Of a stretch of 64,000 bases of DNA, positions 13,990-14,072 are shown piece after piece. Under the pieces are notes generated by a model. That model searched no databases. It worked only from the letters and a program-made list of their open reading frames with translations, and was not told the DNA's origin. The stretch lies in assembly GCF_003334305.1 (NCBI RefSeq), contig NZ_QOWS01000003.1. One strand, given 5' to 3'. The stretch comes from Escherichia coli (lineage in GTDB: Bacteria; Pseudomonadota; Gammaproteobacteria; Enterobacterales; Enterobacteriaceae). Made by a program: the position numbers and the translations under genes. Each line of letters starts with the position of its first letter. Positions within the stretch are counted from its first letter, which is position 1.

Positions 13990-14072
13990 GAATGTTTTAG
14001 CAATCTCTTTCTGTCATGAATCCATGGCAGTGACCATACTAATGGTGACTGCCATTGATGGAGGGAGACACA

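What the first reader, a model, noticed from the sequence alone, without database searches (positions are those of the whole stretch)
14014..14045. Near-perfect 12-bp inverted repeat in the aidB promoter region
atggcagtgacc...ggtgactgccat (one mismatch) with an 8-bp spacer sits 28-59 bp upstream of the aidB start. It may be a regulator binding site, but aidB is frameshifted here, so regulation may be moot in this strain.
Basis: seen in the sequence. Interest (0 to 1): 0.25.

Follow-up and report, generated by a model that had tools for sequence, protein, structure and literature searches.

The report
Hairpin-forming repeat across aidB core promoter
A real, non-random inverted repeat straddles the -10 box and transcription start of the E. 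coli aidB promoter, not the Ada or AidB sites. It is probably the tip of an RNA hairpin that forms only in transcripts reading in from the upstream gene yjfC and hides the aidB ribosome-binding site.

Summary
The repeat is real, but the given coordinates are 10 bases too low. It lies at 14024-14055: 12-nt arms, one mismatch, 8-nt spacer. It extends inward to 14-nt arms (14024-14037 / 14042-14055) around ACTA, 18-49 bp upstream of the aidB GTG. Shuffles give 0.05 such repeats per 64 kb. It is single-copy, and its 48-bp region is identical in 4621 of 5425 E. coli genomes.

Literature coordinates put the -10 (CATACT) at 14035-14040 and +1 at 14047. The repeat therefore spans -23 to +9 and lies downstream of the Ada box (13991-14003).

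As RNA, the whole yjfC-aidB spacer folds into one long hairpin (-35 kcal/mol, z about -5). The repeat is its tip. Its base pairs UCUCUUUCUGUCA with the aidB Shine-Dalgarno region. Only transcripts starting upstream can form it.

Six lineages with yjfC directly upstream of aidB have such a hairpin, with different arm sequences. Twenty-three lineages without that adjacency do not.

My best reading (about 0.4) is a fold-back insulator against read-through, as in IS10. Rivals are an operator for an unknown repressor, or no function.

The aidB frameshift is real but found in 1 of 5426 genomes. Interest is modest.

The parts
14024..14037 (+). Left arm of the inverted repeat, ATGGCAGTGACCAT (-23 to -10 relative to the aidB start site). 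Its inner end overlaps the -13C and the first three bases of the -10 hexamer.
   Evidence: promoter coordinates.
14038..14041 (+). Centre or loop of the repeat, ACTA (-9 to -6). It is the last three bases of the -10 hexamer plus one.
14042..14055 (+). Right arm of the inverted repeat, ATGGTGACTGCCAT (-5 to +9). It contains the transcription start G14047, which is also the mismatched base opposite G14032.
14035..14040 (+). aidB -10 hexamer CATACT (-12 to -7). C14034 is the -13C whose deletion abolishes sigma-S recognition.
   Evidence: Mapped from NC_000913.2 coordinate 4412259 (-13C). -12C is described in PMC3141248. CATACT lies exactly 38 nt before the start codon in nearly all Enterobacteriaceae orthologues.
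14047..14047 (+). aidB transcription start site (+1, G), 26 nt upstream of the GTG.
   Evidence: NC_000913.2 coordinate 4412272 in the Typas-Hengge list of the bioRxiv supplement. The mapping was checked against the sequence printed there.
14004..14016 (+). Pyrimidine-rich strand UCUCUUUCUGUCA (-43 to -31) predicted to pair with the Shine-Dalgarno region. It lies upstream of the aidB start site, so it is present only in transcripts coming from yjfC.
   Evidence: (pair probabilities 0.96-1.00 in the core, 0.5-0.6 at the outermost pair).
14056..14068 (+). Purine-rich strand UGAUGGAGGGAGA containing the aidB Shine-Dalgarno GGAGGG (14060-14065). It pairs with 14004-14016 in read-through RNA.
13991..14003 (+). 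Ada box AATGTTTTAGCAA (AAT-N6-GCAA), -56 to -44. It is separate from the repeat.
   Evidence: Sequence; consensus from PMC3788762.
12826..13989 (+). yjfC (glutathionylspermidine-synthase family), co-directional with aidB. No terminator is predicted between its stop codon and aidB.
14073..15699 (+). aidB, GTG start. It is disrupted in this strain by one extra G at 14456-14458.

Best explanation
The repeat is the apical stem of an RNA hairpin of about 65 nt that spans the whole yjfC-aidB spacer. The hairpin can form only in transcripts that start upstream of about 14004, that is, in read-through from the yjfKLMC genes.

In such RNA the repeat arms (14024-14037 / 14042-14055) nucleate the fold. 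The basal stem then pairs UCUCUUUCUGUCA (14004-14016) with UGAUGGAGGGAGA (14056-14068) and buries the aidB Shine-Dalgarno sequence.

Transcripts made from aidB's own sigma-S/Ada-dependent promoter start at G14047, inside the right arm. They lack the whole 5' half of the hairpin and keep the ribosome-binding site much more accessible.

The inferred effect is that AidB is made only when its own promoter fires, not when the upstream operon is transcribed. The hairpin may also stabilise the 3' end of the yjf message.

Shown here: the repeat, its position relative to -10 and +1, the predicted fold and its statistics, and its association with yjfC adjacency across lineages. Inferred: that read-through transcripts exist, that the fold forms in vivo, and that it blocks translation.
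For: 1. RNA fold of 13990-14075: -35.3 kcal/mol against -19.9 +/- 3.0 for shuffles, z -5.15, 0 of 200 shuffles as good. The repeat is the apical stem and a 13-pair basal stem covers the Shine-Dalgarno sequence.

2. The fold persists in 150-nt and 260-nt contexts. The mean unpaired probability of the Shine-Dalgarno sequence is 0.00-0.01 in read-through RNA and 0.29 in RNA starting at +1. The aidB mRNA alone is not unusually structured (z -0.29).

3. The start site lies inside the right arm.

4. No terminator is predicted between yjfC and aidB.

5. Salmonella, also with yjfC 84 bp upstream, has the homologous repeat in a different form. It reads TCAATGGCGC-AGTCA-[TGACCATACT]-TGACT-(TCA)-GCGCCATTGA, against ATCCATGGC-AGTGA-CCAT[ACTA]ATGG-TGACT-GCCATTGAT in E. 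coli. It has an extra GC/GC pair block and a changed loop.

6. Six yjfC-adjacent lineages were examined: Escherichia, Salmonella, two Citrobacter-like groups, C. sedlakii and Phytobacter. All fold -70..-5 into one hairpin enclosing the -10, with median energy -29.6 and z -4.4. Twenty-three lineages with another upstream gene give -16.9 and z -1.0. Mann-Whitney p is 8e-6 on z and 2e-4 on energy. Many of those 23 carry a canonical upstream terminator (AAGCCATCC..GGATGGCTTTTTT).

7. In the adjacent set the 13-pair basal stem is kept. Left-strand variation there is almost only C<->U opposite G.

8. The + strand RNA is more stable than the - strand in 5 of 6 lineages, by 12-15 kcal/mol in Escherichia.
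Against: No data here show that transcripts cross the yjfC-aidB junction or that the fold forms in cells.

The six adjacent lineages may be a clade that inherited the structure, and the Mann-Whitney test is not corrected for phylogeny.

The right strand of the basal stem is the invariant Shine-Dalgarno sequence, so no two-sided covariation is possible there. C<->U changes are also the commonest mutations.

Pyrimidine-rich tracts that can pair with the Shine-Dalgarno sequence also occur upstream in many non-adjacent lineages (6-8 pairs).

The inner repeat cannot be aligned in register across lineages. Its conservation therefore rests on a by-eye comparison of E. coli and Salmonella.

Across all 26 promoters, left-right complementarity is no better than in cross-species chimeras (p 0.48).

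The left arm overlaps bases -16 to -12, which have their own reported role in sigma-S selectivity (title of Lacour et al. 2003). Part of its conservation therefore needs no hairpin.
Confidence: 0.4

Rival explanations
1. The repeat is a palindromic operator. A dimeric repressor, not yet identified, binds across -23 to +9 and blocks RNA polymerase at the aidB promoter. This could account for part of the ada-independent control of aidB.
For: The dyad is centred in the -10 hexamer, a classic repressor position. It is highly non-random and nearly invariant in E. coli. Several other genera have a small palindrome just after the -10: AATGGC-N3-GCCATT in Cedecea, Enterobacter sp. R1, C. werkmanii and L195, and AATGG-N6-CCATT in E. 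coli. The half-site GCCATTGA is conserved across the family.
Against: The ATGGC/GCCAT half-sites are 27 bp apart in E. coli and 32 bp apart in Salmonella. That is half a helical turn, which a rigid dimer would not tolerate. Most genera with the same promoter lack the -10-straddling repeat. The regulators I could place lie elsewhere: the Ada box at -56 to -44, and AidB, which prefers UP-element DNA. I could not locate the Lrp site. There is no second copy of the sequence in E. coli genomes, although BLAST would miss degenerate operators. No adjacent regulator gene is annotated within about 1.3 kb upstream or 0.6 kb downstream of aidB. The 4 G.U pairs of the extended stem make sense only in RNA.
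Confidence: 0.2
2. The repeat has no function of its own. It is a by-product of independent constraints on the two arms: sigma-S determinants at -16..-7 on the left, and the conserved 5'-UTR motif GCCATTGA plus the CsrA/ribosome site on the right. Template-switch 'quasi-palindrome correction' during replication may have sharpened it.
For: Both arms overlap elements with their own reasons to be conserved. The repeat in this form is confined to Escherichia. Escherichia variants include changes that weaken it, namely 14043 T>G and a 1-nt deletion in L087. Within-species conservation is only modestly better than in flanking coding DNA: in strain SJC33 there are 4 differences in 96 bp spanning the spacer, against about 24 over the 301-bp region as a whole.
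Against: The chance expectation is very low: 0.05 per 64 kb, and far less for one 83-bp spacer. The outer half of the left arm (14024-14030) lies outside the known promoter determinants, yet it is complementary to the right arm. Salmonella keeps complementarity through different bases and indels. Hairpin strength tracks yjfC adjacency.
Confidence: 0.25
3. The hairpin acts only as the 3'-end structure of the yjfKLMC message, as a weak U-less terminator or a barrier to 3' exonucleases. It has no role in aidB translation.
For: It sits 31 nt after the yjfC stop codon where no other terminator exists. Many lineages with a different upstream gene have a canonical terminator at the equivalent place and no long hairpin.
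Against: No U-tract follows either the inner or the full stem. The conserved pairing of the basal stem with the Shine-Dalgarno sequence specifically is not needed for a 3'-end hairpin.
Confidence: 0.1
4. The repeat acts at DNA level. Cruciform extrusion or altered melting at the -10/+1 would make the promoter sensitive to supercoiling.
For: The dyad is centred on the region that melts in the open complex. The DNA fold has z -5.6.
Against: A 14-bp arm with a mismatch and -14 kcal/mol as DNA is, from general knowledge, short for extrusion in vivo. The extended stem depends on G.U pairs, which are mismatches in DNA. There is no comparative signal in most genera.
Confidence: 0.05

Closest known systems
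IS10/Tn10 'protection from external promoters' (fold-back inhibition), Davis, Simons & Kleckner, Cell 1985; cited in PMC13181058. Details of the mechanism are from my own knowledge, as is a similar arrangement described for IS50.
   Same: Read-through transcripts carry an upstream segment that pairs with the ribosome-binding site. The gene's own promoter starts transcription inside the hairpin, so native transcripts lack the inhibitory strand. Both anatomical features are present here.
   Different: This is a chromosomal stress gene next to an unrelated operon, not a transposase at an element end. The hairpin encloses the complete core promoter. No experimental evidence for translational block exists here.
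Palindromic repressor operators overlapping the -10/+1, of the LexA, TrpR or LacI type
   Same: Dyad symmetry centred on the -10 hexamer, about 32 bp in extent, in a regulated promoter.
   Different: No cognate protein or known motif. Half-site spacing is not conserved between Escherichia and Salmonella. No other copies were detected.
Intercistronic 3'-end hairpins and intrinsic terminators
   Same: A stable GC-rich stem-loop shortly after a stop codon, in a spacer that lacks any other terminator.
   Different: No U-tract follows. The stem extends into the next gene's Shine-Dalgarno sequence.
The characterised aidB promoter (Ada box, UP element, sigma-S -10 with -13C/-12C; work of Landini, Volkert, Lacour and colleagues)
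   Same: The repeat lies in this promoter. Its left arm includes the published -16..-12 selectivity bases and the -10.
   Different: In the papers I could read, no regulator site is assigned to the repeat. The primary papers of 1994, 1995, 1996 and 2010 are not held, so I cannot say whether the dyad was noted there.

Membership tests
Fold-back (anti-Shine-Dalgarno) insulator against read-through, IS10 type | An upstream segment is complementary to the ribosome-binding site and forms a stable hairpin with it. | tested here: met
   14004-14016 pairs with 14056-14068 (13 pairs, 4 of them G.U) on top of the repeat stem. Energy is -35.3 kcal/mol, z -5.15. The unpaired probability of the Shine-Dalgarno sequence is 0.00-0.01.
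Fold-back (anti-Shine-Dalgarno) insulator against read-through, IS10 type | The gene's own transcription start lies between the two strands, so native mRNA lacks the inhibitory strand. | tested here: met
   +1 is G14047, from literature coordinates. It lies inside the right arm. Native RNA has an unpaired probability of 0.29 at the Shine-Dalgarno sequence.
Fold-back (anti-Shine-Dalgarno) insulator against read-through, IS10 type | Read-through transcripts exist and are translated poorly compared with native ones. | not testable with these tools
   This needs RNA mapping and translational fusions. The only indirect support is that no terminator is predicted.
Palindromic operator for a dimeric repressor | Dyad symmetry beyond chance, overlapping the core promoter. 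| tested here: met
Palindromic operator for a dimeric repressor | Half-site sequence and spacing are conserved in orthologous promoters. | tested here: not met
   Spacing is 27 bp in E. coli and 32 bp in Salmonella. The repeat is absent in most genera.
Palindromic operator for a dimeric repressor | A cognate DNA-binding protein is demonstrated or predicted. | not testable with these tools
   No transcription-factor motif library was available. Literature searches linking aidB to ChIP-exo or SELEX gave no site here.
Ada-binding site (Ada box) | AAT-N6-GCAA located about -40 to -60. | tested here: not met
   The repeat (-23..+9) has no such motif. The Ada box is at 13991-14003.
Intrinsic (Rho-independent) terminator | A GC-rich hairpin followed immediately by a U-tract. 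| tested here: not met
   The hairpin is present but is followed by GGAGGGAGACAC. The scan found 0 terminator-like sites in 13800-14300.
Repeated or mobile element (REP, IS end) | Multiple copies per genome. | tested here: not met
   There is one place per E. coli genome (median 1, maximum 2) for the 48-bp region.
Known RNA family (Rfam) | A match reaching the family's gathering score. | tested here: not met
   Only chance-level hits (E 0.3-10, far below gathering score) in 13700-14400.

The most novel reading that the evidence does not exclude
Where aidB sits directly behind yjfC with no terminator, enterobacteria have evolved and maintained an RNA fold-back embedded in the promoter. Its tip is this repeat and its base hides the aidB ribosome-binding site. 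AidB synthesis would then depend strictly on aidB's own sigma-S/Ada promoter. This would be a chromosomal counterpart of the IS10 'protection from external promoters' device, and it would replace a terminator in an 83-bp spacer.
Probability: 0.35. Interest if true: 0.5.

Novelty: new member of a known kind. Interest (0 to 1): 0.33.

Why it matters
aidB is a model sigma-S/Ada promoter. If the dyad across its -10 and +1 is really an RNA device, it shows how tightly packed co-directional genes can do without a terminator. The downstream gene's promoter DNA would double as an anti-ribosome-binding hairpin for incoming transcripts.

This would bear on how read-through is tolerated in compact bacterial spacers, and on how aidB reporter fusions that include upstream DNA should be read.

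If the dyad is instead an operator, it would point to a missing regulator of the ada-independent induction of aidB. Either way the scope is one locus in a few enteric genera, so the impact is modest.

Tried and rejected
1. Primary papers on the aidB promoter (Landini 1994; Rippa 2010 and 2011) are not held. I cannot say whether the dyad was noted there.

2. Full-text search for the arm sequences returned only unrelated primers.

3. Searches combining aidB with 'inverted repeat', ChIP-exo, SELEX or yjfC gave no site assignment. They did yield the CsrA-target report.

4. Rfam returned nothing.

5. The consensus promoter/terminator scan found nothing in 13800-14300. The real promoter is sigma-S/Ada-type and too weak for that scan.

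6. I tested for general left-right complementarity across all 26 diverse aidB promoters, comparing native arms with cross-species chimeras. The result was negative (p 0.48). A family-wide -10-straddling hairpin is therefore rejected; it is restricted to yjfC-adjacent lineages.

7. The metagenome pattern scan returned 120 stretches, mostly chance matches, and about 11 new aidB promoter sequences.

8. I looked for a conserved structure in the aidB mRNA itself. RNA from +1 to +84 is not unusually structured (z -0.29).

9. Motif guesses from memory (sigma-54, LexA, FNR, FadR, PdhR, IscR, Lrp) fit poorly by eye. I did not pursue them, for lack of a motif library.

10. A repeated or mobile element is rejected because the sequence is single-copy.

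Full report
**Observation**

The window is E. coli. Positions 13900-14200 are 100% identical to strain O43 RM10042 and 99.7% to K-12. yjfC ends at 13989. aidB starts with GTG at 14073 and translates to MHWQTHTVFNQ....

The repeat is real, but the coordinates given are 10 too low. ATGGCAGTGACC is at 14024-14035 and GGTGACTGCCAT is at 14044-14055, with one mismatch (G14032 opposite G14047) and an 8-nt spacer. That places it 18-49 bp upstream of the GTG.

The arms continue inward to 14 nt around ACTA. The repeat finder extends them to 18 nt at 16/18.

Repeats with 14-nt arms, at most one mismatch and a spacer of at most 12 are expected 0.05 times per dinucleotide shuffle of the window; two are present.

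The 48-bp region is single-copy. It is identical in 4621 of 5425 complete E. coli genomes, and 802 more differ by one or two bases. The variants seen are 14016 A>G, 14017 T>G, 14024 A>G, 14041 A>T and 14043 T>G. The core GGCAGTGACC/GGTGACTGCC is unchanged, including in E. albertii.

**Position in the promoter**

A supplement that re-analyses the Lacour/Landini and Typas/Hengge promoter sets gives the -13C of the aidB promoter as NC_000913.2 4412259 and +1 as 4412272. The sequence printed there lets these be mapped to the window:

- -13C is C14034.
- The -10 hexamer CATACT is 14035-14040.
- +1 is G14047, 26 nt before the GTG.

This agrees with the statement that the aidB -10 begins with C (PMC3141248).

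The left arm is therefore -23 to -10, the centre is -9 to -6, and the right arm is -5 to +9.

The Ada box AAT-N6-GCAA (PMC3788762) is AATGTTTTAGCAA at 13991-14003, that is -56 to -44, and is clear of the repeat. AidB is reported to prefer UP-element DNA (PMC3546729).

The repeat lies on the RNA polymerase core site, not on the Ada or AidB sites.

**Frameshift**

aidB here has one extra G at 14456-14458. Exactly one of 5426 complete genomes shares it. That genome is strain A7 from an orangutan, where aidB is annotated as frameshifted. The change is private to this strain, or it is a homopolymer sequencing error. It says nothing about the promoter in the species.

**Comparative evidence**

I collected aidB upstream regions in three ways:

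- from species-representative genomes;
- from contigs encoding AidB homologues;
- from a metagenome pattern scan.

Three blocks are conserved throughout Enterobacteriaceae:

- the sigma-S-type CTGTCCATACTTA, with CATACT fixed 38 nt before the start codon;
- GCCATTGA;
- the Shine-Dalgarno block GGAGGGAGACAC.

The long repeat straddling the -10 is not general. Across 26 diverse promoters, native left-right complementarity is no better than in cross-species chimeras (p 0.48).

Salmonella is the informative exception. yjfC is also directly upstream there, with an 84-bp spacer, and it has a homologous repeat with different bases and geometry. It reads TCAATGGCGC-AGTCA-[TGACCATACT]-TGACT-(TCA)-GCGCCATTGA. 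It shares ATGGC/GCCAT and AGTxA/TGACT with E. coli, but adds a GC/GC pair block and a bulge. The half-sites are 32 bp apart rather than 27 bp. Complementarity kept through a 5-bp change in spacing fits a hairpin, not a rigid dimeric operator.

**The larger fold**

Folded as RNA, the whole spacer (13990-14075) gives one hairpin of -35.3 kcal/mol (z -5.15). Its parts are:

- the repeat as apical stem;
- a 7-nt one-sided internal loop;
- a 13-pair basal stem between UCUCUUUCUGUCA (14004-14016) and UGAUGGAGGGAGA (14056-14068), which contains the aidB Shine-Dalgarno sequence.

The fold survives in 150-nt and 260-nt contexts, with core pair probabilities of 0.96-1.00. The Shine-Dalgarno sequence is unpaired with probability 0.00-0.01. 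In RNA beginning at +1 that figure is 0.29, and that RNA is not unusually structured.

Transcription from the aidB promoter starts inside the right arm. Only RNA arriving from yjfC can therefore form the hairpin. No terminator is predicted in the spacer.

**Association with gene order**

Six lineages have yjfC directly upstream: Escherichia, Salmonella, two Citrobacter-like groups, C. sedlakii and Phytobacter. All of them fold -70..-5 into one hairpin that encloses the -10 and pairs the Shine-Dalgarno sequence. Median energy is -29.6 kcal/mol and median z is -4.4.

Twenty-three lineages have another upstream gene, and many of those carry a canonical terminator there. They give -16.9 kcal/mol and z -1.0. 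Mann-Whitney p is 8e-6 on z and 2e-4 on energy. This test is not corrected for phylogeny.

RNAalifold on the adjacent set keeps the basal stem. Left-strand variation there is almost only C<->U opposite G.

The + strand RNA is more stable than the - strand in five of six lineages, by 12-15 kcal/mol in Escherichia. This points to RNA of the aidB sense rather than DNA.

**Interpretation**

My best reading (about 0.4) is that the repeat is the tip of a fold-back structure acting on read-through RNA. It would keep aidB untranslated unless its own promoter fires, and it might also protect the yjf mRNA 3' end.

The anatomy matches the IS10 'protection from external promoters' arrangement (Davis, Simons & Kleckner 1985, cited in PMC13181058). 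Two of that arrangement's three defining features are met here. The third, poor translation of read-through RNA, is untested.

The rivals are:

- an operator for an unknown repressor (0.2), which fits the position but not the spacing change or the absence of the repeat elsewhere;
- no function, with the arms constrained separately by sigma-S determinants at -16..-12 (Lacour et al. 2003) and by the conserved, CsrA-targeted 5' UTR (0.25);
- a pure 3'-end hairpin for the yjf message (0.1);
- a DNA cruciform effect (0.05).

**Limits**

- There are no transcript data.
- Only six adjacent lineages were found, and they may be related.
- The inner repeat cannot be aligned in register across lineages.
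- The primary aidB promoter papers could not be read. I therefore cannot exclude that the dyad was already described.

**Verdict**

This is a real, conserved and non-random feature of a well-studied promoter. Its coordinates were misplaced by 10 bases, and it is not the Ada or AidB site. It is most plausibly an RNA-level insulator of a known kind. Interest is modest.

Noticed in passing
window 13991-14003; loci L002-L011, L089, L091, L214, L220 at about -50 to -35 from the -10: Outside Escherichia the aidB promoter carries TTTGTGA(C/T)C-N5-TCC, a CRP-like site centred near -42. E. coli has Ada box B in the same place (TTTTAGCAATCT against TTTT-GTGATCT). This suggests that the Ada dependence of aidB is an Escherichia-specific rewiring of a CRP-type promoter.
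   Followed up: partly
window 14049-14072 and all orthologous loci: GCCATTGA and GGAGGGAGACAC in the 26-nt aidB 5' UTR are conserved across Enterobacteriaceae. aidB is reported as a direct CsrA-repressed target (PMC5389547), and GGA motifs overlap the Shine-Dalgarno sequence.
   Followed up: partly
window 14456-14458: A single extra G frameshifts aidB. It is shared by only 1 of 5426 complete E. coli genomes (strain A7, orangutan). It may be a recent mutation or a homopolymer sequencing error.
   Followed up: yes
window 14058-14060: NCBI's annotation of strain A7 starts the aidB pseudogene at an in-frame ATG 15 nt upstream of the K-12 GTG (14073). Orthologues lack that ATG, and the Shine-Dalgarno sequence lies downstream of it, so the GTG is the likely true start.
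   Followed up: partly
L087 (E. coli GCA_900450065.1) and L081 (strain SCPM-O-B-7615): One E. coli genome has a 1-nt deletion in the right arm (GGTGA-TGCCAT) together with a split yjfC. Another has a truncated yjfC annotated as partial.
   Followed up: no
window 13978-14003: In read-through RNA the yjfC stop-codon region (UUGCUGGAU) is predicted to pair with the Ada-box region (..UUUUAGCAA). This forms a second small hairpin just upstream of the main one.
   Followed up: no
window 5838, 9820, 18315, 26968, 36047, 40031, 40753, 47341: Eight other inverted repeats have 12-nt arms, at most one mismatch and a short spacer. Several have A/T-rich flanks and look like terminators. Shuffles give 1.6 such repeats per window, against 9 observed.
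   Followed up: no
Cedecea L011, Enterobacter sp. R1 L066, C. werkmanii L002, L195: A compact palindrome AATGGC-N3-GCCATT lies immediately downstream of the -10, centred near +3. E. coli has AATGG-N6-CCATT at 14041-14056. It would not be fully transcribed from +1, so it may be a DNA-level site.
   Followed up: partly
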